DNA of 64,000 nucleotides from Botryllus schlosseri (lineage: Eukaryota), in assembly GCA_051294905.1 (NCBI GenBank), contig CM119371.1:808001-872000 (forward strand). The letters run 5' to 3'. Made by a program: the position numbers and the translations under genes. Within the stretch, counting starts at the first letter, position 1. Every line of letters begins with the position of its first letter. Shown piece after piece: positions 2,985-31,860 of the stretch. The notes below the pieces were generated by a model, which was given only the letters and a program-made list of their open reading frames with translations, had not been told where the DNA came from and did no database searches.

Positions 2985-3569
2985 CTAATAAAAAACTTTT
3001 AATATTGGCTAATAAACTTTGATATTGTGTTTCTCGAAAAATGAACATTTGCATAATATCTACCCTGAAGAGTTAAACAAGCCCATGTGACGTCTACCAG
3101 TGTCATATATTGCGCACAATTAGTCAGTCTTCGTCGCCCGTCAATTAAATTAGGTCAGTCGTCATACAGGCATTCGTTGATTGAATCTGAATTAGTCTTT
3201 TGGAGATAACAGCTGATGTCTATGGCAAATCACTATATTAGCTAATCTTCGAAGTAATACCTTAAGCCACCGGGTTCGTGATATCGATGAAAATACTCCT
3301 GATATACTCATATATCAAGTATATTCATAGTTCACTGAGCAGGTTGCTACTATATTGTTCCCATCGAATACGATTTTGAAAATTACTATGGTTCCTGCAA
3401 TAGGCCTAGCCAACGCGAAATTATGACCCCGAATGGATTGCTACGGAAAGATGTGAATATTGCACCATATCATATCTGTAGAGGGGAGGCTTCAAAATGA
3501 GTTAAATTCCAGAACAACACATCATATAGATTTCGTACGAAATGAATCATTTGAAAAAGTATGACTCAC

Positions 3570-3967
3570 TCGTATTCGATTTTCCAGACACCTTGCAATG
3601 ATGCTCAAAAGCTCGTCGTCGATACTGCAGTACCTTAAATTCAAAGAAGGAAGGCTTTGATTCCTTGCTGCGAGCGATCCAACGATATGAGCTTCATCGC
3701 GATTCAATGAGTTATGAGATGCGTTGATGACGGAAAGATCTTTCATAAGATTGTCGTCGCCCGATTCGTAGATTGCTGTATAGAGTTCCATGCGAACGTA
3801 TCTGTCTCCAGTCTTATCGTGAAGTTGTGAACGGATCGATTGATATAAAGCTTGTTGCTTCCGTTTTTGATCCGAGACTGTCAAGCAATACACAATGTCA
3901 TTGTCGTTGTACCGGTATTCGTGATGTTTGCCTAATCGTTTACGTAGCAATTGAAAAATTCACGCGA
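3570..3967 (-). CDS. NLR exon: helical linker and first LRR(s), 5' part disrupted
   Basis: ORF 3522-3950 contains RI-like LRR text (SLNRDEAHIVGSL...LPSLNLRYCSIDDELLSIIARCL) and a donor CGA|GTGAGT at 3570. Both candidate acceptors place an in-frame TGA just upstream of the ORF. Confidence 0.7.
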
Positions 3968-6066: not shown

Positions 6067-7506
6067 CGCTGTGAAGATCGTTATTGGATTTCATGTAAAC
6101 GATGCCTGTAACGAATCTTCGAACCACGGACCATCTTTTCTCATGTAGATGTTGGCCATCAAAGCGAGAGAACATTTCGAGCTCCATTCCCGAGATAAAA
6201 CTAGCTGCCAGAAATTCCTGCATGCTTTGATGGCAGAAGAAGAATGTGAAGTCGCCTTCCAACAAGTGACGGCTGAGGATGTTGTTGTCAGGCACTTTAG
6301 TCATCAAATCCTGCACTTCGTCTGTGGAAACTTTAAACCGATCCAAATCTGCTTTGTAGAACACGACTCGTCCCTCTTGCATGCCTTTAAACGCCATTGC
6401 CTTCAATTTGTTGATAATCGAGAGGATTTGCTTACGGTTTCGGATGTTTTCCACACTCCGTAAGACTAACAGGATCTTGCTGTACAGTTCTGTAACGGTA
6501 GACGGAGGAGGTCTATCTGGATCAATTCCCATCACCACCGCTATCAAAATCAGGAAAACCGGGACGGATAAAAGTTGTATTAATCGCGGTGACATGATTT
6601 CAATCTTCTCCCAGAGATGCTCCCCGTTCTCGCGGAGCAGACACGTGAACAGTTTATAAGCATCTTGTGATGTGAGACCATTGAGGGTGATTATTTCTTC
6701 AGGGCGTGCTTGCGCCGGCAATTCGGACACTTTGAATTCGCGTGACGACACGATGATCTTGACGTGACGAAGGATCTGGCGGGATAAGATATTGTACATG
6801 ATGATCGCAGAGCTCCCTTTCTTATATGGTGTAATCTTTCGGAGGCTACACTCCCCGAAATCCCACTGCATTTGATCAAGCCCGTCAAAAATGATAATTG
6901 CATCAGTTTGATTCTCGACCAGCCATTCGAAAGCTTTGTCCTCTTCCGATTCATTTTTGAAGAGACCGTCGAATAGAAACTGGGATGTTTTGATACCGCT
7001 CTCTGCATCCATGTTCTTCAATTCAATATAATGTACCATTTTTTGTTTCGGTTCACCGTTGTCACTCACAGATGAAATTCCGAGCGCTTTGTGCGCAATT
7101 CTACGCATGAGGGTGGTTTTACCCGATCCTGCGGACGCGACGATAGCAGTGTAACCAACTTTATAATTTGAAGGTAATTTCTCATACTTTGACAGCGATT
7201 CCATTATCTTTTCCATTGTTATCGATTTACCGTCGTTGTCGGATTGACGATAAAATCCGACTTCCTCTATCAATTGACTTTGAAAATCTTTTCTTCTTGA
7301 GCCACGAACAGTTTCATCAGTTGAAGAGTTTTTCTCGCGAAAACGGCCTTTGAAGTAGTCATCGACATTGACTTTCTTCATCTGCGGGAAAACCTCGAAG
7401 TCAGGTTCGTGAAGAAGTTCATTCTTGAAGTCTTCGCGAATTCCACTTGCCGTTTCTTGACGAGTATTTTCGTTTATAACCTCTATCAATTTCTTGTTAT
7501 TAACGC
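6067..7506 (-). CDS. NLR-family gene, large NACHT exon (NACHT NTPase + winged-helix/HD2 region)
   Basis: Uninterrupted 476-aa ORF with Walker A ASAGSGKTT, Walker B IIIFDGLDQ, sensor-like IIVSSR, SVPVFL and the NLR winged-helix motif FCHQSMQEFLAA. Bounded by acceptor TCTCTTTTCTGCAG| (exon start 7506) and donor |GTGAGT (exon end 6067). Confidence 0.93.
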
Positions 7507-7953
7507 CTGCAGAAAAGAGAGCTTAAATTAGGAAGTATATCAAAACTGCCACGTCATCTCGCCAGTGAGAAATTACTACAAATGGTATTTTCTAGGACAC
7601 TGTCATCAAACTTAATTGTTGCAGTTACATCAGCATGACGGCTGCTTTAAACGGGCCAGAGATCGGGTGTTGCTCAATGTAACCTAAAACAGTTACGATA
7701 TTCCTCCGAAATCTAATCCTGGCTACGCTTATGAACTTTATTGCTATCTTCGCGCCCAGCATTATCTGCAATGAATCATTACAAATATATACCTAACCCT
7801 GTAGTAGATCAGTCTCCCTTAACGCGACAAGATTTCTGCTGCATGTCGTGGTAAGAAAACGTAGCCGCTGTCCGCAGTGTAGTTGTCGTTGTTGTTGCAG
7901 ATGGTTGGTCGAGTTAATAAATTGTGACGTTGCAATCTTGACAGCGGCATAAC

Positions 7954-9310
7954 CAGGCCGTGTTATTTTTGGCACATGCCAAAACTGCCAAAAATAACTT
8001 ATTTTTGGCATTTTTCGATTTTTATTTTTGGCAGTTTTGGCATCGACCTCTAAATAGATAGTTTCAGCCTCGAATTAGTCACAAAAACGCTTTATTTGGG
8101 CCATTTTGTCAAAAGACACCACAAAATCTGCAGCATCCTCGTATAATCAGTGCCAACAAACAATAAGAAGAAGAAAAAACCTAACGATTTCATAGGTTAA
8201 TAATATCAAACGAAACCACGAAATGTGCAGTATCCATCGGAATCGGTGCCAATAAGCAAAAAAAGAAATAAAAGCCTAACAAACACGCTCAACAGCTGAT
8301 TGTTACAGCTGTTGAATAGACTTAAATCGTTTGCACTGTAACAGTGGTTCCAAACTCAGGTCAGCTAAGTTTCTCCTAAATTCATTTCTTGCCCAGCGAA
8401 TCTGGGAAATATCGGCTTCAACAGTAGCTGTTTAGGGAAAGAATGTTGCCAGTCATCCACAAAAGGTTTTCAGAGCTTCAAAATCTTTGGAGGGCCGAAC
8501 CGCCTTCCATGCACCATGAAAAGAGATCACTTCGCCAGTGCCATCGATCTCATCGCGGAAAGAATTTTCTTCCCGACCCTTTTCTAGGAGTTCCCTGTGT
8601 TGTCGCTCAGCTCATTCTATTTAGTAGCCCGACTATCATTTCTCCTTCAGTCTACCGATATATTTTTGGAGGACTTTTGTCACTTCAGGTGGCTTTAATA
8701 TTACCAACTCGCATGGAAGTGTCCTGGTAAGGTTAGCTTGTTTAAGAACATTGACGCAACAAGACTGTCTGGCAAAACGAGACTATGCAGCTCAGAAATA
8801 GCCAGACAGTTTGTTGCGTCACAATGTTCAACTCGATCACAATGCAAAAATCGTGGTTGATTTTGGGGGTTCCAGTTCTATGAGCAGAATATAATTTATA
8901 TTTTAATAATCAGTACTGCGACAGCTTCTCATTGATACCCGTTTTATCAAATTTACGCTCGACAAGTCGGTCAAAAATGGTCGTAAAATTGCCTTTGGAC
9001 AAATGGAAAGTATGACGTAAACCAAATGCAGTCAGCCGTTCAATCTCGCCGTGCCCACACCATTTAGGACACCATGCTTTCACCCCTAATGGGTGGGTTG
9101 GACACAGATTAAGAAACATGCCTTTCACAAACGCTCTTCTCGCTTGTAACGTCGTCCTGCTAACACAACTCCATGAACGAAAAACACTATTTGACAGGCC
9201 GAGTTATTTTTGGCATATGCCAAAAAATGCTTATTTTTTTGCATTTTCAAATTTTTATTTTTGGCAGTTTTGGCATCTGGCTGCTGAAATGCCAAAAATA
9301 ACACGTCCTG
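7954..9310 (-). mobile_element. Non-autonomous hAT-type element carrying a transposase C-terminal remnant
   Basis: TIR CAGG(C/A)CGTGTTATTTTTGGCA; perfect TSD GGCATAAC; subterminal TTTTGGCA repeats. Minus-strand remnant 8303-8734 reads LPCELVILKPPEV...SFHGAWKAV...LATFFP.TATVEADISQIRWARNEFRRNLADLSLEPLLQCKRF. Confidence 0.85.
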
Positions 9311-9702
9311 GGCATAACCTAAGGTCACGGAAAGGTAGTAGGACGTTCATTCATTGCGTGACAACTGGTTTGTAGATTTACCTCTCTGTAGCCATGAAGC
9401 ATTCGCTATTTCGTCACAATCAGAAATCAAAATGCGAAAATGAATGGTGCGACGCGGCCAACACGGTGTAGTGCGTGAGCCTGATATCATAAAAATGTTG
9501 AAACAAGCGAATCGGAGGACGATTGACAATGCGGGACAGTAACAGCACGTCGTCAGCCAACAAAAATCATTTGTATTGCCCCCACCCTCATAGGGTATAC
9601 CTGACTCTCGGGGGACGCAGTCCATCCGGCTGTACCTTTTGGGCCGCTACTTATCAGCGAGTTCTGTGGACTACTTGGTAAGTAAGCTTTAATCGTCTAG
9701 CT

Positions 9703-11241
9703 CAGTGTCTCCCAAACTTTTTTGAGCTACCGCCCCCCTGGACAGCTAATTAAGTGACACCGCCCCCCCCCCCCCCCCCGACACCCCCTCACCATACCAA
9801 ATCCTAAAACGAAAGTTGTTCTGCATTTAATACAGCTAATAATGAGACGGATGAAGCTAGTGTATCAGTATCATCATTCTCGTCATATTGGGTTCAAGTT
9901 TTGATAGGAACAATATCAGTCTAAAACCTGCAGTGTTCACTGCATGTAGGCCTACTAGCAAATCGGTTTCTGCTGTGAGTCAGAAACTTGGACACGGCGC
10001 TGAGAACACGTTCTATCAAATATGAGCGAGGAAGGGTAACGACTAAAACTCAAAATAGATCTACACTACAATTAGGGTCACCATATTTTGGGAATCTGAA
10101 ACGATGACGCTGTATCAAAATTTTCAAACTTACAATGATGGAGTAAAATCCGGAAAAAATGGTAAATTTTTCCCGAGTTTGTGGCTAATTGACTAATAAA
10201 AGGTCGTTTTCCTGGCTCAGTTTCTGAAACACCCGCCAGACCGATACTCGGGCGCTGATTTCCTATATCTCAGTCCAATTTCCACGTACATTCAAAACCA
10301 AAAATTTCAAACAAGAGGAACAACTCTCAAGAAAGAGGACGTTTAGGCGTCCTCCGAGGACACTTTCAAAAAAGTCAAAAAAGAGGACAAATCCTTTTAA
10401 AAGAGGACGTATGGTAACCCTGACTACAATGTAATCAGCTGCTCAAACATTTCATGCCTGGACACTTCACAGAATGGATTGATTATCCGGTGAGGAATTT
10501 CTAATTGGAACATATCGTGGCACCAAATCACCATCCTCGTTTAATTTTGTGAGATGATTTATTCATGTTTCTTCATCAAAACCCGGTATTCGGGCTGGAC
10601 CGGTAGCTCATAGCCAAGCTTGAGAAATAGAACAGCTGACGTGTCGCAAAATTTCGGTAAATTGTCTATCACTGACTTGTCAGTGAATACGGACAGTGCC
10701 ATGTTCACATTTATCAGGTTTTATCAATACCATATGAACGGATATATTCTATACCCTCAAAGTTTGAGAAATACTACCATCAAATAGGATTGATGTCGTT
10801 TCACACAACCAGAAAGCCGTGTCGAAGGCCACCGTAACAGCACTGTTGAAAATCCACGATCGTTTGAAACAGATAATAAAATCTCATAAAAGCCATCACA
10901 TCTTGCTGTGAGCAATAACTGCTCAAATAGACTTCGTAGATCTCCCAGCAGCACACAATGAACCACGCTTTTCGGGTATGCTGCAGGAATAACATTGTCA
11001 AGTAGCCTAACAATGGACTTTTCTGGTGCTGCGAATATAGCCTCTTTATTTTAATCAATCGTTTCAACACTATACGCAGCAGTTGACTTCGAAACCTACA
11101 CCGCCCGCATTTGCTCTCAGCGCCCCCCTACCGCCCAATTTTCTAGCCAGCGCCCCCCAATCGCCCATTTCATGGCCAGCGCCCCCTCCACGCTCGCGAA
11201 CGCCCCCAGGGTGGCGCTGGCGCCCACTTTGGGAACCACTG
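9703..11241. mobile_element. Buster-type hAT element with decayed transposase fragments
   Basis: TIR CAGTGTCTCCCAAA...TTTGGGAACCACTG; perfect TSD GTCTAGCT. Minus-strand VHCVL and NDRGFSTVLLRW...GCVKR remnants resemble the hAT CxxH and RW motifs. Confidence 0.82.
10073..10422. mobile_element. MITE with AAGAGGAC subterminal repeats (nested)
   Basis: TAGGGTCACCATA...TATGGTAACCCTG; perfect TSD ACTACAAT. Confidence 0.85.
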
Positions 11242-12548
11242 GTCTAGCTAGACTCGCAAAAGGCGATTTTTTTGTATAATTCATGATTGAATCCGTCAAT
11301 ATGATCTGGAATTGCATATATATTGTTATCAATTTTTCATTTCCTCTCTGCTCACTTAATCAGAATTACTGGTATAGCTGAGTGAGATATCTTGGGAATG
11401 TAGGGGCCGTTAAAAATGATGAAACAACTTCGGGTGGACCCATTGGTATAACAACTTCATTGCATGTTATTTCGTGACCTCATGTCTGCTATGTCAAAAG
11501 ATACCGGCAAATAATAGTTTCCTGCGGGACGACATTTGTTTTGTGGGATTCAAATTTCTTGGACAAAATCATTTGACGCCATTTATTTATCGGCTATGGA
11601 CAGTTATAGACAACATATCGAAGTTTTCGGTCAGCATAGGGGCAGTCCTTTTCGGCCAAGGATTTCTCGCAGGCGATTGTTCTGACACACTTCTCGGAGT
11701 CGCATGTGGCATGGCCTAAAACCACATATGTCTTGGTGCGTCGTGGCACGGTAATGGCCTAAGACAAAATGACAATTTCTATAAATAATGCGTATCTGTT
11801 CTTGGCGAGGGTAACCAATATTCAGGATATTTGGCAATATTAAATTGCGTGCAGCGCGGAACATTTATGACAATGTTGTATATCTATGAATTTCCCAATT
11901 TTCCAATTTCATTGGGTTTGGGGTACCAGAGATGCCAGAACACTAATGAAATCTTCATGACCTCTAGGCCTGGCAAAACTTCTTCACATGTTTTGAACTT
12001 ATTGAAAAGGTGCCTTCAGCAGCACTGGCGTAGCAGCATGTGCTGCCGCCCCTGGCTCTCTTGAAAATGCCGCACCCTAAGTAGACCGCATCAATTTCGA
12101 CATAGATTCATATTCAAGTAATCCTGTCAATAGAAATAATTACAAATATTATGCCGCGTCTCAGCCTCACCGCCTCGACGTTAATAAGGCCAAAAATAAT
12201 AAAGACAAGAAATAGCGAACGAATGTAGCTGCAAATAGAAAATCAATGGCCGCCTCAAAGCAAAAGCAGCGATAATATCCTCAAATTCAAGTTTTTGAAC
12301 GTGGTCTCTTTCTATAGACAGAACGGAGAGAGCTGATTGCCGATCATTATTCATGATAGAACTAAATAAGACTTAATCAGTCCTCACACAGCTCGCAATT
12401 GAAACACGAATGTTCAGATAAAGTTTCAGACACGAGCATAACTATGGTGTCGAATCAAGTAGCTTTGCATTAACCAACCAATGTAAAACACCAAACGCTG
12501 TTGCACTACGATCAAGCTTGGTTTCACTGCTCCGCACTAGCCTCTTAA

Positions 12549-13457
12549 CCCTTACGAGGTGGGGCCATATTTCGCAGAATTGACCTTCACTTTTCAAATT
12601 CTCACCGTGACCCCACCAGGTCTTGAATCTGGGCCTTTCCAGTTTAAAAGTGGGCGGAGTATAGCCCTCTACCGATTCCACCCTTGATCGACACCCCATG
12701 ACATGTCTGAGGTTTTTAATAAGTTTAAATAAACAAGCTTTTCCCCAAAAAAACTCTCTCTCTCTCTCAATTTTCAAGGCTGACCCTCAGGATGGCGTCA
12801 GAGAGAGGATTGTGATGCTTCAGTGCGTAGCCACTGTTGCCTGGTTTCAAACAAGCCGTCAACCATGGTTGTAAACCGCGCGGTTCGTCAGATATCGAAA
12901 AATGGAAAATACATATAAAATTTACAAATGGGCGTGGTCAGTGAGTGGTCATCAAGGTCAAATTCATGATCAAGACTCAATCGGCCCCTGCAGTCCGGTT
13001 TATGGCATAAAACAACGCGATATGCTTTCTTTTGTAATATCCAACCATTTGCAGGCATAGTAAACCTGTTTATGACTCTGAATTTGCACTTGAACTTGAC
13101 CTAGATCTTGAAAATCATTGAAGCGTGACCAAAATTTACAAATCCCCCTCCGAAAACGTTTTGATGTTTGAAACGGTGAAAATTTACATAGAAAACATGT
13201 CGACTTCTGATGTTCTGGCAGATTTTCCGACAATATTTCCCACTCGGAAAATATCCGGAAGTTTTAGGTGATAACCGTATTTTATTTTATTTTTTGTTTA
13301 TTTTTACAAACCAAAATTTTTGAGTAAGGTACTTAATACATCGGAAAAGTCTCAACTTTTCAAAAAACGTAGTACCCGATGTTAAGGGCGTGTCAACATG
13401 GAGAAATCGGTGTCGGAGACATGCCATATCAAATATGATACGCCCACCTCGTAAGGG
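12549..13457. mobile_element. piggyBac-like non-autonomous element
   Basis: TTAA|CCCTTACGAGGTGGG...CCCACCTCGTAAGGG|TTAA. Near-identical inverted copy at 32784-33718. Confidence 0.9.
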
Positions 13458-13526
13458 TTAACCCTTTTAAAATCTCAAGTTGAACAACTTCACATGATCA
13501 TACTTTAATTTGTGTTCGTCCTAGAG

Positions 13527-13826
13527 GAGTGGTTCTCAACTTTTTTTAGACACGCCCCCCTATATGATAGTGAAAAATTCCGCGCCCCTTATCGTCATAT
13601 CACAAAATCCAACCGGGATGCTAGCAACCCTAACAGATTGTTTGATGGCATGGAAGGTTATGACTGTTGATTAGAGAATTCAAAAATATGAAATTCGGTC
13701 TATATATATAGAAACACGCGTGAATTGGGGGTAAATCGCGCAGAGCGCGAATAAAATTCATTTGACCTCTTCTTCGCCCCCCGTTCAGATGCTTTCACGC
13801 GCCCCCCCCCAGGTTGAGAACCCCTG
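13527..13826. mobile_element. hAT MITE
   Basis: GAGTGGTTCTCAAC...GTTGAGAACCCCTG; perfect TSD TCCTAGAG. Confidence 0.8.
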
Positions 13827-14371
13827 TCCTAGAGGCCTCATATTGGTTTGTACGAAAAGGTAGCAATCTTCTGCTTTATATTATCCTTAATTCGACGGTA
13901 TAAGGCATGTCAATTTCCGCAGCTAACTCGAAAAAGTCCACCTCGTCGTCATAAGTGCTTCTAAAAGCGCTGGTGAAGAAATTGTGACTTTTGCTTTGCA
14001 GCAGCGCGTGGGAATTCAAAAATCCAAATATATCGTTTAAGTGGTGCATGCCGGTTAACCTACTTTCAGCTTCAAGTTTAAATCTGTCCTAAGCTTGAAA
14101 CATGCATCGTCTAAATTCTTCAACAACACTGAGGCCTGCCCCTGCATCTTCTGTTTGTTCGCCAGGCATTCTCCTTTTTGTGCGAACTCTCCGAACAAGC
14201 GGCCGTGACGGCTATTTCGGAGTGGTTCCAGCGCCATGTTAACATATTAATTCGTGTTTTCGGAATCAGCGCGACACTAGCTTTAGATTGAGACCTGTTT
14301 GATTAAATTTTAGCTCACGGGACGTAAGCTATAGGACTACCAAGCACTCTTATTTTAGCAGGCTCTCTACA

Positions 14372-14510
14372 CGCCGAGCGAAATAGTGTAATGGTGATGC
14401 GTCCGGCTTCTTGATCGTGGGTTCGATCCCCGGCCGGGTCAGAACAAAGACTCGAAAACTGGTATCCGCGGTTATCCCGCGCTCAGCAATCAGGGAGTAT
14501 AAAAAACGGG
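14372..14510 (+). mobile_element. tRNA-derived SINE (head and core)
   Basis: A box TAGTGTAATGG and B box GGTTCGATCCC followed by a non-tRNA body. The anticodon arm is missing or short, so this is not an intact tRNA. Confidence 0.6.
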
Positions 14511-14751
14511 GTGCAGACTAGATTACCTTACTATGAAGTACATATCGCATCTCCGTCGTCAAGGCATCTCGATGATGCAGGCGAAAAAGAATACCATATC
14601 TCTCTCACTATGCAGCCTCATTTTGCCGCCCCCTTGGAGCCTTCCGCCCCTGGCGCAGAGCCAGAACCGCCAAGTGGCTGCTACGCCACTGTTCAGCAGA
14701 CCATTCTCCCAAATTTACAAACCGTATTGAATGAAAGAACATTATACTCAC

Positions 14752-14911
14752 TTTTAATCCCAGGAGGTGATTCTCCTTCAGCGCCGGTGCTGTTGTAGAC
14801 GAGCTTGTTTACATTGATTTGATCTCCGGTCACGACGTTAACGGAGCTTTCCCTGAACTTCAGATTGACATTTTCTCCTTCGGCCAAAGTTGCGGATCCT
14901 AAGAAAGACAT
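14752..14911 (-). CDS. Probable N-terminal coding exon of the NLR gene (MSFLGSATLAEGENVNLKFRESSVNVVTGDQINVNKLVYNSTGAEGESPPGIK)
   Basis: Open frame ending AAA A|GTGAGT (phase 1), which joins |GC GTT AAT AAC AAG AAA TTG ATA GAG at 7506 in the NACHT frame. Upstream acceptor TATTATTTTGTTATAAG| gives an exon start at 14943. A possible 5' exon ends in GTAAGT near 15085. Confidence 0.62.
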
Positions 14912-15943
14912 TATTATTGTACTGCCTGCCAGGTTTCCATAGCCTTATAACAAAATAATATGGATTCTATTATTTTCTTTGATGTCCTTCGGATTATTAT
15001 TTGCGCAACATGCAAAATGTACGATATTTAAATAACTTCACAACTGTATTATAAGAAGTCTGATCTCAAATACTAGGCTACTTACCGCATATTTCGGGGG
15101 CCAATTATATAGGCTTGACATAAGCGACATCAGATTGGATCAGAATCGCTATCTTTACCCCTTTTTCCATAATTGCTTACTAATTAGCTAGCGTATAGGC
15201 CTGAAATTACCAAAAATATATAGTAGCATTCTATGTTTAATCTTTCGAATTTCATATTTGAGAACTGTCTCTTCAACATTCATAACCTCCCATGCCATCA
15301 AACTGTCCGTTGGGATAGCCAGCATTCTTGTTGCCTTTTGTTGTGATATGGCTGTAAGGGGGCACGATCTTTTTCGCAGTCATAAAGGAGGGCGTATCTA
15401 TTAAAAACCTCTGCTTCACGGCATTCTCTTTCAACGATTGTAGATAGCAGCCAAAGTATTGACAGGCCTAACACGCGATTATTCAGGTCAGCGATGATAT
15501 TTTGCGTACATGGCCTGTCTTAGATAGGATTGCTCAGACCGGTTGTTGACGCAAACAATTAGTGAGTATTGCGAGCGGGTCAGCAATCAACGACCTAATT
15601 ATGCTCGTGTAGCGTACAAATGACAAACCAATTCAGCAGGAGATCGCATGCTTTGTGCAGGGCAGGCGAATCTTGCTAATTGGCAACACGCTTGTTACCA
15701 ATTGGCGGTGCGTTACACTGATAATACGTATTAATGGGCAGGATTGTCGAATGCGGATCGCGATTGACAACAAACACGAAGAAGGGTGTGATTTGAAGAT
15801 TTTTGTCCAGAATTGTTGTACTCATGCATGTGCACCACTTACAATTATGGTAATTCAGTAAACATGGATTGGCTACTCGTGAGCCACTTCAATTTTACGG
15901 TTACGGTACTTAGATTCTAAAGCATAATATATATGCCATATGA

Positions 15944-17939: not shown

Positions 17940-18872
17940 ATGGAAGCAAGTATATTGAAGCTTCTCGAGAAGCAGCAGGAAATGATGGCGGAACAACGCG
18001 CACAGCATGGCGAAGCAATGGCGTAAGTGATGGCTGGGTTGGAACAGAAAAAACCAACACAAAGAAGAAATGGCACAGTTAACGCAGAGGTTGAGTCCCG
18101 GTGCGTCAACATCTGAAGCTACCGCTCCCAAGTTTGATTCATTTGTAAAATCAAAGGAGAAATGGGACCAGTATCTTCAACGATTCAACCATCACCTAGC
18201 AATTTACGGCATTTCCAATGTGGAGAAGAAAAGAGCGTGTCTACTCTCATGGGTCGGACCTGAAACCTACTCGCTTCTACGTAATTTGTTTGGTGCTGCA
18301 GATGTCAGTGCACAATCCTTCGACGCGTTGACTGAGAAGTTGTCCACACACTTCAAGGACTCAATTCATGTGCAAGCAGCCAGGTACGAATTTTACAATT
18401 GCAAAATGCAGCCGGGACAATCGTACGCCGTTTGGATCGCTACTCTACGCGGAATCTCCAAAGATTGCAACTTCATATGCTCAAGAGATGGCTGTGATCA
18501 GAGCTACGTTGATGAGCTAATGCGCGATCGCATCATTAAAGAAACGCCGCACGCGGATGTGAGACGGCATTGTCTAACACAAACCAATCCATCCCTCGAC
18601 GACGTTCTCAAAGTAGCCGCAACATACGTGAGAACGCTGGAAACTGATAGGGTTATTCAGGGCGAGAGTAACGCTAAATATACTTCCATCGTCAACAAAA
18701 TGACTGGAAGCTATCAGAAGGGGACAAAACCTTCAAATCCATCCAAGGCAACTTCCCGGAAAGACTGAAATCCTGCAGCCGCTGTTTCATCGATCACCAG
18801 AGAAAAGACTGTCAATATCGACATTCAGTATGTCAGAAATGTGGCCGTAAAGGTCATATCAAACCTGTCTGC
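17940..18872 (+). pseudogene. gag with two zinc knuckles (premature stop and frameshift)
   Basis: ATG at 17940 (MEASILKLLEKQQ...), TAA near 18024, then ORF 18070-18768 (WDQYLQRF, LLSWVG, MRDRII). In a shifted frame, CSRCFIDHQRKDC and CQKCGRKGHIKPVC (CX2CX3HX4C + CX2CX4HX4C). Confidence 0.9.
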
Positions 18873-19573
18873 ATGTCTACCAAACCTAGCATCACGCAAC
18901 AGGTCACATCCGTCAATTTCTGCTCAGTGCCGCTCCTCTCCTTCGACATCGATCAACTATATCGACGCGTGGGAAACCAGCTCTGGATCAACTCCAGCAT
19001 CAACGGCATTCCGTTGCCGAGACAGTGGGACACTGGTGCACCCTCCGCCATGGTGGGATTGACTGGGTACAAAACTTTGGGCTCGCCGAAACTCTCAGCA
19101 TACCATTGCTCTTTCGTAGCGTACGGCGACAAGCCACTGAAAGTGAAAGGTATTTGCACTGTAACCGTGCAGGTGGGTTCTGAAGTTCGAGTTGGCTTAA
19201 AATTGGTGGTTTTCGACGAACACCGTGGGCAAAACATGTTTGGTCTCGATTGGAGCGATGCTTTCTCCATGACCGCTAAGGGAACGTCTGCTTTGGATGT
19301 AATTTCCTCGCAGATGGTCAAATCGCAATCATGTAATACTATTGACATTTCTGATTCGAACGACAAATCGGTATCTTCTAAGTCCAAATTTCCCTCCGTT
19401 TCCTGCAATGTATTAGGACGATGCACCAAGACAAAGGTGACAATTCACTTGAAACCTAATGCCAAGCCCGTATTCAACAAGCCACGTCCTTTGCCTTTCG
19501 CAAGGCAAATCGCTGTTCAAACCGAATTGGATAGATTAGTCAATCAAGGTATCCTCGAACCAATCAATTACAG
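18873..19573 (+). pseudogene. pol: aspartic protease and RT N-terminus
   Basis: WDTGAPS protease motif, MFGLDW, KPVFNKPRPLPFA, ELDRLVNQGILEPINYS; cut at 19573 by an insertion. Confidence 0.92.
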
Positions 19574-20981
19574 CACTGAAAAAAATCTGGTAGATTTACT
19601 GGGAAATCTCTGTAAAGTTTGCAACGAATTACCAGTCGCAGCCAATAACTGTGTGTAGCTTGTAATTTTACATTTTGATATGTGATATTACCTTAATTTA
19701 GCTGTAAAGTCAAGTTACCAGAATTTCTTCGCAAAATTACTGGCAGTTACTCGTTCCTGCAGTTTATCCGGCTATTGGCAAAATTGATTAGCTTGAAAAT
19801 CGCTGCAGCCAATGTTATACGTGGAACTGAATGTTACTGGTATCATTTTTGGGGTGATTTGACCTGATTCAACAACGTTCGCGAGACTAGGGTCTATCAT
19901 ACGGAAATAGTTGGCCCTAGTACTAATTTAAGTAAAGTACATACTAGGCTAGGGTAAAAGAAACAACTGACAATAGTAGCTAATGTGGTACACCATAGCC
20001 ACTACATTATATTATAAGGCTATGGCTATACGTTGTTTACCACGGATAGGACTGATAAGTTAAAATATCCGTTTAGGATGTATAATATTGTTGGGGAAAC
20101 TAGAAATATCAGCACCGCATGCTCAGTTGTACATTTGTTAATGGCGGACATTGCGAATGGCGATCTGTCATAGGTTACAGTAGGTTAGGGTTACGCGTTA
20201 CTGCTTTTTCTGAGTTTCGTAGTAAACAACCAACGCACAACTGTGACATCACAAGCAGCGTCTGGTTAAGTAAGTACAGTAAGTAGTGAACATCACGTGG
20301 AATATATATCAATTTATACGAGATTAGATGGAAAAGAAAGGGACTATATGTAATGATAAATGTTTCTGTATGAAAAAATACGACCTAAATCAAACATTAT
20401 AACGTGGCCAGTAAATATTATTGGTGGCATGTCAGCGGATGAATACCACTCATTTTGAAATCGTTCGAGTGTCGTATCGTCGTCTGGCCATTATTGAGAT
20501 TTGAGCAAAGGGTGGAGCGCCAATATGGAATCTTTTAGTCTCGCTAAACGTACCGGGATTCCAACCCGGGTGGAGCGAAGATTGTTGTGCTTGAAGAAAG
20601 TGGATCGTTCAAGATCCTAGGAATGCTGAATGGGATACGCATCGTAAAAGGTACAGTACTGCCGGGGCCTACGATATTTCGTAGGCCCCGGTACTGCATA
20701 GTATTTGTTACCGTGAATATCTACGGCTGTGCACACCACCGGGATGACTTTGATTTCATTATTGAAATATTTCATTCGCCGCATTCTCTGTTCTGTTTTG
20801 GATATTAGTCGACTTACATCGTGACCTGTGACACCACATACTTCGCCACAGAAGAGTTGAAACTGTTGGCTTGTTCATGTAATTTTCGGGTCATAGCATA
20901 GAGAAGTTTCCATCCACTGCTGGATTTGTTTGGCGCACATGCCACCTCAAATGAGGAATCTTTTGCTTCAATACATTAGAT

Positions 20982-26433: not shown

Positions 26434-26922
26434 AGTGATTGGGCAGCACCAATTGTTGCCGTCACTAAATCAAATGGATCAGTACGCATTTGTGGTGACT
26501 TCAAAGCATTGAATCAACAAGTTCAGATAGATCAACATCCCCTGCCCTCCTTAGATGAAATTCTTCACAAGTTACAGGGTGGTTGTATTTTCACGAAAAT
26601 TGATCTTGCCGATGCTTATTTTCAGCTAGAATTAGATGATGATGCGAAGAATTTGTGTGTCATCAACACTCAATTCGGTCTATTCCGTTATCGACGCATG
26701 TGTTTCGGAGTCGCATCAGTCCCGCAAATTTTCAACGCTGTGTTGATGCCATGATCGCCGGCTTACCCGGTGTTGCTAGTTTTATCGATGACATAATCGT
26801 TACTGGCATTGATGAACGCGATCATTTTCGCAACTTATCGCTACTCTTTGAGCGCCTCACCGAGTACGGTTTCACCGTCAACTTCGCGAAATGTCAATTT
26901 TTCAAAAGTAGTATCGAGTACC
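26434..26922 (+). pseudogene. pol: reverse transcriptase core (frameshifted)
   Basis: WAAPIVAV, VRICGDFKALN, KIDLADAYFQ, GLFRYRRMCFGV, FQRCVD, FIDDIIVTG, KCQFF. Confidence 0.95.
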
Positions 26923-28222
26923 CAGAGGTGGTCAGTAACGAAGTACTTCTACTTTTTCGAAGTACTCAAGTAGTTTTCCTCTACTTCTGGTACTTACTTA
27001 AGTAGATCAAATTTTCGCTACTTCTACTTCTACTTCTTAATATTTTGTGATCTACTTACTTACTTTTCGCTATTTTCAGTTTGTCAAGTAGAAGTAGTTC
27101 AATCTTCCAATCAGGAAGACAGCCCGAGGAATTTGGAGCTGTTTTCACGTAGTATGAACATTCAATTTTCATAAAAGTTTAGTAAAGCACAGAATTTCGT
27201 CGCGCTTCGCACGCAGTGGATACGGAGTGACCAGTATGATTTCACGAAAGTATCGGTGAATACAATTTAGGTGGAAGGTAGGCGTGGTTCCGTTCACACC
27301 ACATTGTCGCCCGTCACCCATATGAAATAATTCATCACAGTATATATGGCTCATCATAACGTTTGAAACTGATGTTTCGCAATCTAGCATTTTCTTGTCA
27401 TATCGTATAATCTAGCATATATGTCCATGGCGTGTCCTAATCTGGAAGAGTGTACTTTGACTTTTTCTTAGTTTTAGAGCTGTTTTAGCATACCACCTTT
27501 GAAACTTTCTGGACTAAAAACATGACATACATATTCTTTTTTTAGAAGTAGTATTGATATTTCACTTTCAATTCCCAGTATCATATAGGCCTATTTGAGA
27601 TATAATTAATATCACTTCTTTTGTCCGAATAACATACATGTTGGAGTATAAAAGCAAGTGCAGTAATGCCTTTAATTTATGGAAATAAAGCTACACAATA
27701 TGGCATTTTTATGGTCCACCATATTTTTCATTAACGTTTACTAATCGCGCAAAGTATTTACACCGTATCCTATACAACTTCTCCATATTGCTCTTCGACT
27801 AAACTACGGGTCTTATAATATGGGGGATGGTGCCATACCCTGCTATTTTCCAAAACGTGTTGTTTGAGAAAACAGAGGATTATTATCGCATTTCCTTATC
27901 AATACTATCATTTTCATCCCATGATGTGGACGAATGCTTATGCTATCGAAAATTGGATACCTGTTGGTATGCATCAATATGAATCAAGCTCGTCACCTAT
28001 CACATAGCTCAATTTGCAGCTTTTTATAATCCATCCAATCAGGATCGTTTTCACAACTACTTACTTACTTGAGTACTTTTAGAGTCAGTCAATTCTACTT
28101 TTACTTCAAGTAGTTTTAGGTTGCTCATGAAAGAAGTACTTCTACTTGTACTTGAGTAGATTTTTTCGTCGCTACTTCTACTTCTACTTGAGTAGCTTTC
28201 TTGACTACTTTGACCACCTCTG
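26923..28222. mobile_element. Non-autonomous hAT element with CTACTT/AAGTAG subterminal repeats
   Basis: CAGAGGTGGTCA...TGACCACCTCTG; perfect TSD CGAGTACC. Removal restores SSIEYLGHII. Confidence 0.92.
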
Positions 28223-28990
28223 CGAGTACCTGGGTCATATAATCGACAAGGACGGCAAACGCACATCTAACAAATCCGTTGAAGCAATCAAACAGTTGCC
28301 CAAACCTTAGGATGTTCGCCAGCTACAGGCATTCCTGGGCAAACTCAATTATTATCGCGCGTTTATTCCTAATTTCACGAATAAAGCCGCTGCCTTGTAC
28401 CGTCTTCTTCAAAAAGACGCGGAATTCATTTGGAATACGGACTGTGACGCAGCTTTTCGCATTCTCAAAAACGACATAGTCGACGCTACGCAGTTAGCTC
28501 ATTATGATGTAAACAAGCAGCTCATTTTGTCAACTGATGCTTCTCAATTCGGAATCGGCGCTGTCCTCTCAATCGAGCACAATGGCGAAGAGAGACCGAT
28601 CGCGCACGCATCGAAAACGCTTTCCGATTCGCAAAAAGCCTACTATCAAATCGAGAAGGAAGCTCTGTCAATCATTTACGGAGTCACTAGATTTCGTCAA
28701 TTCTTGTATGGTAGAAAATTTACGCTCGTAACGGAGTACAAACAGCTTCTAGCTATTTTCTCGCCGCACAAGAAAATTCCAGTGATTACAGCGCAACGCT
28801 TACAGCGATGGGCACTAACGCTTATGGCTTACCAATACGATATTCGCGGAGATCGTTCACGCTATTAATATGGCATTCGATGCTTACCGTTAACTCGCAA
28901 TGAAATTCGCGACGCGACGCTGAAGGAAAAAACCATGAAACTAGTTAAATTATCTGTCACTCATGGTAATTGGAATCCAAAGGTGCACAT
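28223..28990 (+). pseudogene. pol: RT thumb, RNase H and linker
   Basis: YLGHIIDK, LSTDASQFGIGAVL, IEKEALSIIYGV, LYGRKFTLVT, RLQRWALTL. Confidence 0.93.
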
Positions 28991-30686: not shown

Positions 30687-31860
30687 CTGCACATTGATGA
30701 TTTTTCTTGGTTTTCGACTCGCAAACACTCGCTTTCTCTGCACGAAGGCATAGTCATGCTCAATATTGATTGTTTTCAGCACGTAGTAATACCGCAGTCA
30801 CTTCGCTCGCGAGTCTTATCATTGTTGCACGAATGACATTGGGGTATCGCAAAAATGAAGCAGATGGCGCGACGTTACATCGCATGGCCTTCCATTAATC
30901 GCGACATTGAAAATCTCGTTAAGAGTTGCGACGCTTGCCGTAAGGTAATGAAAGCGCCTGATCGTCATTATCGCGAATGGCCTAAAACTTCTGAAAGCTT
31001 TGATGAACGAATTCACTTGGATTTCGCAGGTCCAATAAACAATAAAATGTTTCTTGTCATCGTCGATGCGCATTCGAAATATCCTTTCGTTAAAGTAATG
31101 AATGTCGGTTCTACCACAACCTTGTGTGTGGTCAACGCTTTGAGGGAAGTCTTCTCTATTGAAGGCTTGCCCGTAACAATTGTCACGGATGGCGGACCGC
31201 AATTCACGTCGAATGAATTCGATACGTTTTGCTCTAATTTGGCAATCAGCCATATCGTATCACCGTCTTTTCACCCTGCCTCGAACGGGGAAGCGGAGCG
31301 TTTCGTTCAGACTTTAAAAGCTGGATTGATAAAAAATTGCGACGGGGGAAAAGATCTCAACTTCGCGCTCCAAACACTTCTCGCTACATACCGATCTGCA
31401 CCGCACCCGGGCATAGACTGGAAAACGCCTGCCGAGATTTTACATGGTCGACAGCCGCGTAATTTGTTAGTTTGTGCTCACCCTTCGACAAATCGAAACC
31501 CGTTACGCCTGGACAATCAGTCACTCATTTCGAGATTGGTTCCTCGGTTTACGCTCGCAGTTACCGAAGCGGACCAAAGTGGGTTCCTGGCGTGGTGACG
31601 GAAATACTGGGGCGTGTTGTTTACATCGTAAAAACAGATCATGGGTATTGGAGAAGGCACAAAAACCAACTCCAACCACGCTTGATTTCTGCTGGCAATG
31701 ATACATCCACACAGGAAGTTGCTCAGCCTCAATAGTCCCAAGCGGAGCAATCATTGGCCAGGAATAGGGCACAACGTCATGCAGCTAGTCCTGCTCGTAC
31801 GTCGGGTAGACGTTACCCCGTTAGAAATAGAAAACAAACAGATTTCTATCGGCCAACGTG
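30687..31860 (+). pseudogene. pol: integrase (HHCC, DDE core, C-terminal region)
   Basis: LHE*HWG...MKQMARRYIAWP...CDAC, RIHLDFAGP, IVTDGGPQFTS, HPASNGEAERFV; frameshifted tail KWVPGVV...WRRHKNQL. Confidence 0.93.

What the first reader, a model, noticed from the sequence alone, without database searches (positions are those of the whole stretch)
14752..14911. Animal NLR with no death-fold domain and a short amyloid/RHIM-like N-terminal motif
Seen: this exon splices in frame (AAA A|GC GTT) across a 7.2-kb TE-filled intron onto the NACHT exon. The predicted N-terminus is about 53 aa, with a V/N-rich, beta-prone stretch ENVNLKFRESSVNVVTGDQINVNKLVYN, then a G/P linker, then the pre-NACHT region. 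No CARD, DD, DED, PYD or TIR is visible. Known: RHIMs, the cryptic RHIMs of Drosophila PGRP-LC/Imd, and the N-terminal motifs of fungal and bacterial NLRs all signal by amyloid templating. Inference: the SxxxVVxGDQxN pattern resembles these, so this could be an animal NLR that signals by amyloid nucleation to an unlinked effector carrying the same motif. It lacks the canonical (V/I)Q(V/I/L)G RHIM core, so the match is only suggestive.
Basis: partly seen in the sequence, partly recalled or inferred. Interest (0 to 1): 0.72.

Follow-up and report, generated by a model that had tools for sequence, protein, structure and literature searches.

The report
Conserved tail exon of animal NLRs
This is the second small exon of an immune-receptor (NLR) gene; it encodes a short asparagine/valine-rich tail that about 150 sister copies carry where a death-fold domain usually sits, but in this copy the first exon is broken and amyloid signalling remains untested.

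Summary
The open frame, the phase-1 donor at 14752|14751 and the in-frame acceptor at 7506 are real. The N-terminus is mis-assigned. In 30 of 30 paralogous loci an AG acceptor sits directly before "GSATLAEG", at 14900-14899 here. The true exon is therefore 14898-14752, a symmetric phase 1-1 cassette.

A short exon 1 lies about 190-220 nt upstream and is intact in at least 18 of 30 paralogues (MAEGG...SPGxS). In this copy it carries an in-frame TAA.

The genome holds at least 150 copies of the cassette. Of 151 copies, 94 have a listed NACHT exon within 40 kb downstream. The 40-residue core is under purifying selection (dN/dS 0.23, against 0.84 for the linker).

No death fold is present. This rests on Pfam, an in-frame stop before the conserved ATG, and an AF2 model of the pre-NACHT region. 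RHIM and EAD10 membership tests fail. AF2 gives the motif no fold.

No kinase, caspase or pore-former carrying the motif was found. Four tandem NHL-propeller genes do appear to carry the same cassette. RNA data were uninformative.

Verdict: a real, lineage-specific, non-globular NLR N-terminal module. An amyloid mechanism is possible but unsupported.

The parts
15171..15225 (-). Promoter / 5'UTR-like block conserved among paralogues directly upstream of the family's start codon. In the consensus it holds an in-frame TAG 7 codons before the ATG.
   Evidence: conservation among loci ends about 350 nt upstream of exon 2; every intact exon 1 has a stop within 25 codons or fewer upstream of its ATG.
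15086..15170 (-). Exon 1 relic. ATG at 15170-15168; compensated indels; in-frame TAA at 15107-15105; phase-1 donor G|GT at 15086|15085-15084. Paralogues encode MAEGG(K/Q)..S(D/G)VADV(K/M)PTS(I/L)SPG(I/T)S here.
14899..15085 (-). Intron 1 (187 nt).
14752..14898 (-). Exon 2, the motif cassette: 147 nt, phase 1-1. It encodes (G)SATLAEGENVNLKFRESSVNVVTGDQINVNKLVYNSTGAEGESPPGIK(S).
7507..14751 (-). Intron 2 (7245 nt), rich in repeats.
   Evidence: Distance from motif exon to NACHT exon in paralogues ranges from 118 nt to 39 kb, median 8.9 kb.
6067..7506 (-). Exon 3: a pre-NACHT region of about 125 aa, then NACHT (Walker A ASAGSGKTT) and NOD2-type winged helix. Donor G|GTGAGT at 6067|6066.
3522..3959 (-). 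Open frame downstream that aligns by eye to the post-NACHT helical/LRR-proximal region of the Styela clava NLR P0015. Exon borders were not resolved.
   Evidence: (only weak LRR_FBXL18, E 0.051).

Best explanation
The stretch is exon 2 of a NACHT-LRR (NLR) gene. The true exon is 14898-14752. The gene belongs to a lineage-specific family in a 495-Mb animal genome. Its nearest named relatives are NLRs of the ascidian Styela clava.

The exon is a symmetric phase 1-1 cassette present in about 150 copies. Together with a 25-codon exon 1 it forms a non-globular N-terminal tail of about 75 residues that stands where animal NLRs normally carry a CARD, PYD, DD or TIR domain. Its 40-residue core has the consensus LGSATLAEGENVNLKFxKSxVNVVAGDQINVNKxVYNIT and is kept by purifying selection.

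Inferred mechanism, not shown: the tail is the receptor's output module. When the NACHT domains oligomerise, the clustered tails associate through short beta-strands (Asn/Val ladders). In that state they bind each other or a common partner, in the manner of a homotypic adaptor motif.

In this particular copy exon 1 is disabled by a nonsense codon. The motif is therefore translated only if transcripts start in, or retain, the 3' end of intron 1 and use the ATG at 14911. Otherwise this copy yields a tail-less protein or is decaying.
For: Gene anatomy
- The frame, donor and acceptor are as described.
- NACHT matches at E 2.7e-19 and NOD2_WH at 5e-06.
- An AG acceptor and a phase-1 donor are present in 30 of 30 loci.
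- Exon 1 is intact in at least 18 of 30 loci, with a stop shortly upstream of its ATG.

Family
- There are 150 matches, 2 of them with stops.
- 94 of 151 cassettes have a listed NACHT exon within 40 kb downstream on the same strand. For matches at E<0.001 the figure is 68 of 89.
- 85 of 141 listed NACHT loci have a cassette upstream.

Selection
- The core has pS 0.441 and pN 0.136, giving dN/dS 0.23. The linker gives 0.84. The intron 1 p-distance is 0.27.
- The window's own subfamily has pN/pS 0.44.

Non-globular nature
- The AF2 model has mean pLDDT 50.2 and no secondary structure.
- There is no significant PDB sequence match and no Pfam family over its cut-off.

No death fold
- Pfam finds none.
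- The AF2 model of the 140 pre-NACHT residues shows one long helix plus scattered elements.
- Foldseek finds nothing at E<=0.001.

Portability
- The same exon 1 plus exon 2 cassette stands upstream of four tandem NHL-repeat genes.

This copy
- It has TAA at 15107-15105 and no later ATG in exon 1.
Against: - No transcript evidence. Laying four runs gave no listed joint for 15086^14898 or 14752^7506, and depth on the NACHT exon in the one certain RNA run was about zero. The splice model therefore rests on comparison alone.
- The mechanism is inference from composition and position.
- 57 of 151 cassettes have no listed NACHT exon within 40 kb. The NACHT lists are incomplete: each search scored only 84-94 of 217-224 candidates.
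- 16 of 20 loci examined over 9 kb downstream showed no recognisable domain. Many cassettes may therefore be orphans or pseudogene heads.
- The AF2 alignment was shallow (27 rows, Neff about 2), so 'no fold' is weak evidence.
It could be a genuine alternative start in this subfamily.
Confidence: 0.55

Rival explanations
1. The tail is an amyloid-forming signalling motif of RHIM, PP or BASS type. Receptor oligomerisation nucleates a cross-beta fold, which templates the same motif on an unlinked effector.
For: - Position and size fit: a short motif at the N-terminus of an NLR, as in fungal and bacterial systems (passages read).
- The composition is rich in Asn, Val, Gly and Gln, with alternating hydrophobic and Asn positions.
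- There is no globular fold.
- There is a faint internal repeat, GENVN against GDQIN, at hhalign E 0.11 over 5 columns.
- The same cassette sits on a second protein type, the NHL genes.
- The closest named NLR, Styela clava P0015, also begins with an Asn/Ile/Gln-rich repeat. It aligns to the motif at the same position with E 0.11.
Against: - The G-phi-Q-phi-G / (I/V)Q(I/V/L)G core is absent. The family has G-[DN]-Q-[ITV]-[NH].
- There is no Pfam hit to RHIM, PP (Ses_B), HET-s or NACHT_sigma at E<=10.
- No solved amyloid motif appears among the PDB matches.
- No kinase, caspase, TIR or pore-forming gene with the motif was seen in 20 loci.
- An NHL propeller is not a known executioner domain.
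- The two E 0.11 alignments are not significant.
Confidence: 0.13
2. The tail is an ordinary short linear or beta-strand docking motif. It binds a common globular adaptor or the receptor's own LRR/NACHT in cis (autoinhibition). No self-templating assembly is involved.
For: - The conserved core is short and is flanked by a fast-evolving linker.
- It is predicted disordered on its own.
- More than 100 paralogues share it while their sensor parts diverge to 50-60% identity. This is as expected for a shared downstream contact.
Against: - Forty conserved residues is long for a linear motif.
- No candidate adaptor was identified.
- Nothing here separates this model from homotypic assembly.
Confidence: 0.2
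3. At the level of this copy only: the window's gene is a decaying or N-terminally truncated family member, and the motif exon is not translated here.
For: - Exon 1 has compensated indels plus an in-frame TAA and no later ATG.
- After canonical splicing the next in-frame ATG lies in the pre-NACHT part of exon 3.
- Several short upstream ORFs precede the 14911 ATG if intron 1 is retained.
- There was practically no RNA depth on the NACHT exon in the one certain RNA run.
Against: - Exon 2 and the 487-aa NACHT exon are open.
- Window against L002: 5 synonymous changes per 27.8 sites and 6 non-synonymous per 92.2 sites in the motif core, still below neutral.
- An in-frame ATG at the same place is shared by 8 of 30 loci. 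These include the whole closest subfamily, whose ancestral start is also lost.
- The RNA sample was about 6% of one run.
Confidence: 0.35
4. The tail is a diverged member of the bacterial Effector-associated domain 10 (EAD10, PF19954), a small alpha+beta homotypic adaptor of NTPase conflict systems.
For: - EAD10 is the only Pfam family reported for the window's exon (E 0.097, 13.2 bits, profile positions 30-68 of 77).
- It recurs in 3 of 27 paralogues, best E 0.0085.
- EADs are homotypic adaptors on STAND/NTPase proteins (passages read).
Against: - The score is far under the curated cut-off of 24.1 bits.
- None of 12 further homologues matched at E<=1. These were 11 ORFs from other sources plus the divergent copy L051.
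- A profile search of 1.84 billion proteins returned no bacterial EAD10 protein.
- The AF2 model shows no alpha+beta fold.
Confidence: 0.03

Closest known systems
Animal NLRs (NACHT-LRR receptors such as NOD1/2 and NLRPs); closest named sequence is Styela clava 'NACHT, LRR and PYD domains-containing protein 4C-like' (P0015)
   Same: It has a NACHT with Walker A, a NOD2-type winged helix and a conserved pre-NACHT segment. P0015 is 32% identical over 94% of the NACHT exon. P0015 also has no Pfam domain in its first 250 residues and begins with an Asn/Ile/Gln-rich stretch.
   Different: There is no CARD, PYD, DD, DED, BIR or TIR domain. The N-terminus is a two-exon, non-globular tail of about 75 residues whose core is a family-specific 40-residue motif.
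NLR-associated amyloid signalling motifs of fungi and bacteria (HET-s/HRAM, sigma, PP, BASS1-10) and the metazoan RHIM
   Same: It is a short, Asn/Gly/Gln/Val-rich, non-globular motif at the N-terminus of an NLR. The same motif is present on a second kind of protein.
   Different: The RHIM/PP/BASS3 signature G-phi-Q-phi-G is absent. No profile match was found. No cell-death effector partner was found. The motif is about 40 residues long, against about 20 for one RHIM or BASS unit. Amyloid formation is untested.
Effector-associated domains (EAD1-11) and death-like adaptors of bacterial NTPase conflict systems (Kaur et al. 2020, 2021; passages read)
   Same: The logic is the same: a small non-enzymatic module on the NTPase, and again on other proteins of the same genome.
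   Different: EADs are folded domains (EAD10 is alpha+beta). The sequence match to EAD10 is below threshold and not reproducible.

Membership tests
NLR (NACHT-LRR receptor) | NACHT NTPase domain with Walker A | tested here: met
   PF05729 at E 2.7e-19, 70.1 bits against a cut-off of 26.7; ASAGSGKTT is present in exon 3.
NLR (NACHT-LRR receptor) | C-terminal leucine-rich repeats | tested here: inconclusive
   The only hit is a weak LRR_FBXL18 match (E 0.051) on ORF 3522-3959. The homologue P0015 has LRR_6. The window may end before the LRR exons.
Death-fold superfamily (CARD/PYD/DD/DED) N-terminal effector | Six-helix bundle of about 85-90 residues N-terminal to the NACHT | tested here: not met
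   No Pfam hit on exon 2 or on the first 125 residues of exon 3. The AF2 model of the motif has no secondary structure. The AF2 model of the 140 pre-NACHT residues has one long helix plus short elements. Foldseek against the PDB finds nothing at E<=0.001. A stop lies upstream of the conserved start codon.
RHIM (Pfam RHIM; RIPK1/3, ZBP1, TRIF, Drosophila cRHIMs) | Core tetrad (I/V)-Q-(I/V/L)-G, or G-phi-Q-phi-G | tested here: not met
   The family alignment has G-[DN]-Q-[ITV]-[NH]; only Q28 is invariant. The signature was taken from passages of the preprint 10.1101/2020.01.06.895854.
RHIM / PP / HET-s / sigma (Pfam models) | Profile match | tested here: not met
   An hmmscan at E<=10 lists only EAD10. 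None of these families appears among the 27 paralogues at E<=1.
NLR-associated amyloid signalling motif (functional class) | The same motif on an effector protein, adjacent or elsewhere in the genome | tested here: inconclusive
   Four tandem NHL-repeat genes carry the cassette. Two of the three examined have an intact exon 1, and a phase-compatible linker exon is present. No kinase, caspase, TIR or pore-former was seen in 20 loci.
NLR-associated amyloid signalling motif (functional class) | Forms self-templating cross-beta fibrils | not testable with these tools
   This needs ThT/EM/ssNMR or an in-cell nucleation assay.
EAD10 (PF19954) | Score over the curated cut-off (24.1 bits) and an alpha+beta fold | tested here: not met
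   13.2 bits for the window's exon. 3 of 27 paralogues match, best E 0.0085. 0 of 12 further homologues match. No fold is predicted.

The most novel reading that the evidence does not exclude
An animal NLR family of more than 100 genes has replaced the death-fold domain with a portable, exon-encoded beta-assembly cassette. The cassette signals by nucleated, amyloid-like co-polymerisation with the same cassette on non-NLR proteins, here a cluster of NHL-propeller genes. This would be the first metazoan counterpart of the fungal and bacterial NLR, amyloid motif and partner logic. It would be independent of RHIM.
Probability: 0.12. Interest if true: 0.85.

Novelty: new variant of a known kind. 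Interest (0 to 1): 0.55.

Why it matters
Animal NLRs are thought to signal through folded death-fold, BIR or TIR domains. Short non-globular N-terminal motifs on NLRs are known from fungi and bacteria.

This family shows a large, selected, exon-shuffled N-terminal module with no recognisable fold on about 150 gene heads in an invertebrate chordate-like genome. Automatic gene models miss it. The public ORF-level entries and some Styela models begin at the NACHT exon. Such receptors are therefore likely to be scored as 'NACHT-only'.

If the tail proves to be a homotypic or templating module, it gives a directly testable new output mechanism for animal innate immune receptors. It would also link to the allorecognition-type NLR systems of fungi. 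If it is only a docking peptide, it still defines the common downstream contact of an expanded receptor family.

Tried and rejected
RNA evidence
- The look-up of sequencing runs listed no holder on record as RNA.
- Read laying on window:1-16200 with X1, X2, X5 and X23 was dominated by repeat-derived reads.
  - It listed no joint at 15086^14898 or 14752^7506. Another 29 joints and 545 loose ends were not shown.
  - One contig joint, 3806^6067, has a canonical donor. Its acceptor side lies inside what looks like coding sequence and lacks AG, so I did not use it.

Complex prediction
- Four copies of the motif gave 'no answer'. This is no evidence either way.

Protein searches
- ESM Atlas gave no usable hit.
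- The search for homologous proteins with the 53-aa exon and lengths 'longer' found none.
- The profile search of 1.84 billion representatives found only 11 short ORF-level entries with the motif. It also returned 3 long repeat proteins that I take as chance hits.
- The 'near' and 'longer' searches with the NACHT exon gave unnamed single-exon ORFs at 40-51% identity, and Styela clava or fish models at 32% or less. No full-length model carried the tail.

Similarity tests that did not reach significance
- Internal repeat test: hhalign E 0.11 over 5 columns.
- Link to the N-terminus of Styela P0015: E 0.11 over 23 columns.
- EAD10: rejected.

Partner search
- Of 122 ORFs of 90 aa or more from 20 loci, 104 were scanned. 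The 18 left out lay over or upstream of the motif exon.
- Only NACHT (1 locus), NHL (3 loci) and retroelement domains (1 locus) appeared.
- Of 267 ORFs of 55-89 aa, 144 were scanned, from 7 of 12 loci. The 123 ORFs of L035, L039, L045, L046 and L047 were not scanned. The only hit was a P-element transposase piece.
The weaker cassette copies on C3, C12 and C1:23-25 Mb were therefore not inspected.
- The genome search does not take an alignment for this genome.

Literature
- Three searches (listings and abstracts only) showed no paper describing such a tail on animal or ascidian NLRs. This is not proof that none exists.

Full report
**Observation.**
On the minus strand, 14911-14752 reads MSFLGSATLAEGENVNLKFRESSVNVVTGDQINVNKLVYNSTGAEGESPPGIK and ends AAA A|GTGAGT. 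At 7508-7507 a pyrimidine tract ends in AG, and the next exon begins GC GTT AAT. That exon (7506-6067) is open for 487 aa. It matches NACHT at E 2.7e-19 and NOD2_WH at 5e-06, and it ends at a G|GTGAGT donor.

**The exon is an internal cassette, not the first coding exon.**
- A six-frame search of the window's own genome (495.5 Mb, 219 contigs) with the 53 residues gave 150 matches from 159 candidates. Of these, 89 had E<0.001 and only 2 of 150 contained a stop.
- In all 30 loci delivered with that search, a pyrimidine tract plus AG lies directly before the G of 'GSATLAEG'. All 30 exons end in a phase-1 GT donor.
Twelve of 30 have no in-frame ATG before the next upstream stop.
- The 30 loci share a block of about 350 nt upstream, and conservation stops abruptly beyond it. 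Aligned, this block holds a short exon of the type ccATGGCAGAAGGGGGT...AGCG|GTGAGT, followed by an intron of about 160-220 nt.
- This exon encodes about 25 residues, MAEGG(K/Q)..S(D/G)VADV(K/M)PTS(I/L)SPG(I/T)S. It ends in phase 1, matching the acceptor of the motif exon.
- My script found it intact in 18 of 30 loci. In a nineteenth, L019, it is visible in the alignment but has a donor my pattern missed.
- In every intact copy a stop lies 25 codons or fewer upstream of the ATG. No further coding exon can feed into it in that frame.
- The family's N-terminus is therefore exon 1 (about 25 aa), then exon 2 (49 aa), then about 125 pre-NACHT residues of exon 3.

**This copy.**
- In the window, exon 1 spans 15170-15086.
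- It has an early 1-nt loss and a later insertion that together restore the frame. It then has TAA at 15107-15105, where paralogues have a Ser codon. No ATG follows before the donor at 15085-15084.
- The acceptor AG is at 14900-14899, so the true exon 2 is 14898-14752 (147 nt, phase 1-1).
- The closest subfamily (L002-L005) has also lost the ancestral ATG. L002, L003 and L005 keep only a 6-codon start, and L004 keeps none. All members of the subfamily share the in-frame intronic ATG.
- Two readings remain. Either the subfamily has moved its start to that ATG, or the window's copy no longer translates the tail.
- The motif core of the subfamily still shows pN/pS 0.44.
- RNA data did not decide the question (see the section Tried and rejected).

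**Family and linkage to NACHT.**
- Three searches for NACHT exons together listed 141 distinct loci. Each scored only 84-94 of 217-224 candidates, so the list is incomplete.
- Of 151 cassette matches, 94 have a listed NACHT exon within 40 kb downstream on the same strand. The distance has a median of 8.9 kb and ranges from 118 nt to 39 kb. For matches at E<0.001 the figure is 68 of 89.
- Of the 141 NACHT loci, 85 have a cassette upstream.
- The window's 7.2-kb intron is thus typical. Its very high contig depth fits repeats.

**Is the motif functional?**
- Twenty-seven copies align almost without gaps. The consensus is LGSATLAEGENVNLKFxKSxVNVVAGDQINVNKxVYNITxAEGE.
- G2, L6, A7, N11, Q28 and V35 are invariant.
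- Pooled Nei-Gojobori estimates give dN/dS 0.23 for columns 1-40 and 0.84 for the Gly/Pro/Ser linker. Intron 1 differs by 0.27 per site among 21 copies.
- The core is therefore a translated, selected peptide, and the linker is close to neutral.

**What it is not.**
- *Death fold.* Pfam finds no death-fold family on exon 2 or on the pre-NACHT part. The AF2 model of the first 140 residues of exon 3 (13-row alignment, pLDDT 63) has one long helix and a few short elements. Foldseek finds no PDB match at E<=0.001.
- *A folded domain.* The AF2 model of the motif (27 rows) has pLDDT 50 and no secondary structure. A profile search of PDB sequences gives nothing better than E 0.22.
- *RHIM-type motifs.* RHIM, PP, HET-s and sigma models do not appear even at E<=10. 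The RHIM/PP/BASS3 signature G-phi-Q-phi-G, taken from passages of preprint 10.1101/2020.01.06.895854, is not met. The family has G-[DN]-Q-[ITV]-[NH].
- *EAD10.* The only Pfam name that appears is EAD10 (PF19954), a bacterial homotypic adaptor (passages of PMC7159879 and PMC8195603). It scores 13.2 bits against a cut-off of 24.1. It matches in 3 of 27 paralogues and in 0 of 12 further homologues. A profile search of 1.84 billion proteins returned no bacterial relative. I reject membership.

**Relatives elsewhere.**
- The profile search found 11 short ORF-level entries carrying the motif, and no full gene model.
- The best named relatives of the NACHT exon are Styela clava NLRs, at 32% identity.
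- One of them, P0015, has no Pfam domain in its first 250 residues. It begins with an Asn/Ile/Gln-rich repeat that hhalign places against the motif at the same position, but only at E 0.11.
- Two other Styela models start exactly at the equivalent of the NACHT exon. This suggests that small 5' exons are missed by annotation.
- An earlier finding of this scan in the same genome (e1-7786589) reached the same description for another copy: two small first exons, an Asn/Val-rich tail, and failed RHIM tests. My analysis was made before I saw it and agrees with it.

**Partner search.**
- I fetched about 9 kb downstream of 20 cassettes that had no listed NACHT exon. One of them has a NACHT exon 2 kb away that the lists had missed.
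- Three loci, all from a tandem cluster on contig 8, have NHL repeats downstream instead. One locus holds a retroelement. The rest show nothing recognisable.
- A search with one NHL ORF gave 56 matches from 210 candidates. The four best matches are exactly the four C8 genes at 3.86-4.02 Mb, each 4.1-8.3 kb downstream of a cassette.
- In two of the three C8 copies examined, exon 1 and its donor are intact.
- A conserved open exon encoding ...VISSARELLKNQDSDELIESDS...GKVK starts in phase 1 after a strong acceptor and ends in phase 2. This matches both the cassette's donor and the acceptor of the first NHL exon.
- A chimeric 'tail, linker, NHL propeller' gene is therefore plausible but unproven.
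- Some loci carry two cassette exons in tandem, for example L048.
- No kinase, caspase, TIR or pore-forming exon was seen.

**Mechanism.**
- *Shown.* The tail is a conserved, selected, apparently non-globular, exon-portable N-terminal module. It sits on a large NLR family, and probably on a small NHL family, in the place of a death-fold domain.
- *Inferred.* It is the output module. Its short alternating Val/Ile-Asn strands associate when NACHT oligomerisation brings the tails together, in homotypic fashion or with a common partner.
Composition, position and the existence of a second carrier type fit. The motif signature, the profile tests and the lack of an executioner partner do not.
- I put the amyloid model at about 0.12-0.13, a plain docking or autoinhibitory motif at about 0.2, and homotypic beta-assembly without commitment to amyloid as the leading model.

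**Novelty and score.**
- Three literature searches (listings and abstracts only) showed no description of such a tail on animal NLRs.
- I class the finding as a new variant of a known kind: an NLR with a new, non-death-fold N-terminal module.
- Interest is 0.55. The module is real and widespread in this genome, and it makes a clear biochemical question testable. The mechanism is unproven, and this particular copy has a damaged first exon.

Noticed in passing
G000 contig 8, 3.86-4.02 Mb (loci L036, L041, L049; fourth copy at C8:4008634 not fetched): Four tandem genes have the NLR-type exon 1 plus motif exon lying 4-8 kb upstream of NHL-repeat exons with short GT-AG introns. A conserved linker exon is phase-compatible with both. 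These are possible 'tail-NHL propeller' chimeras. The exon 1 donor of L036 is mutated, and L041 has a retroelement in the intron.
   Followed up: partly
L048:786-932 and L048:1307-1435 (G000 C2:26859362 and 26859868). Similar pairs are listed at C2:39494750/39495495, C1:11762594/11763743, C12:2905681/2907504, C1:17089185/17089521 and C2:34575812/34575890.: Two motif exons stand in tandem a few hundred bases apart on the same strand. This is exon duplication of the symmetric phase 1-1 cassette. In L048 the second copy is more diverged and its donor looks weak.
   Followed up: partly
window 18031-19658, 26643-27005, 28311-28868, 30837-31598 (+ strand): These are pieces of an LTR-retrotransposon-like element upstream of the NLR gene. 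The gag/PNMA-like and aspartyl-protease/zinc-knuckle ORFs gave weak Pfam hits. ORFs that look by eye like reverse transcriptase, RNase H and integrase appear. The pieces are interrupted by other sequence.
   Followed up: no
window 3806 and 6067: One contig of run X1 joins 6067 (the canonical donor of the NACHT exon) to 3806. That site lacks an AG and lies inside an open frame that looks coding. It may be a paralogue, an assembly chimera or an unusual splice.
   Followed up: partly
P0015 (Styela clava NLR), residues 1-60: The N-terminus carries three G-x-x-I-x-x-(D/N)-N-I-Q-like repeats (EGANIVNIQ, RGEVIQIDNIQ, AGVIHTDNIQ) in a gene model that has no recognised N-terminal domain. This may be a distant counterpart of the tail described here.
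   Followed up: partly
G000 contig 1, about 0.18-4.5 Mb (includes the window): The window lies in a dense array of same-strand NLR genes. Dozens of cassette and NACHT matches on the minus strand are listed. Several NACHT matches include stop codons near their ends, which may mark pseudogenes or simply exon borders.
   Followed up: no
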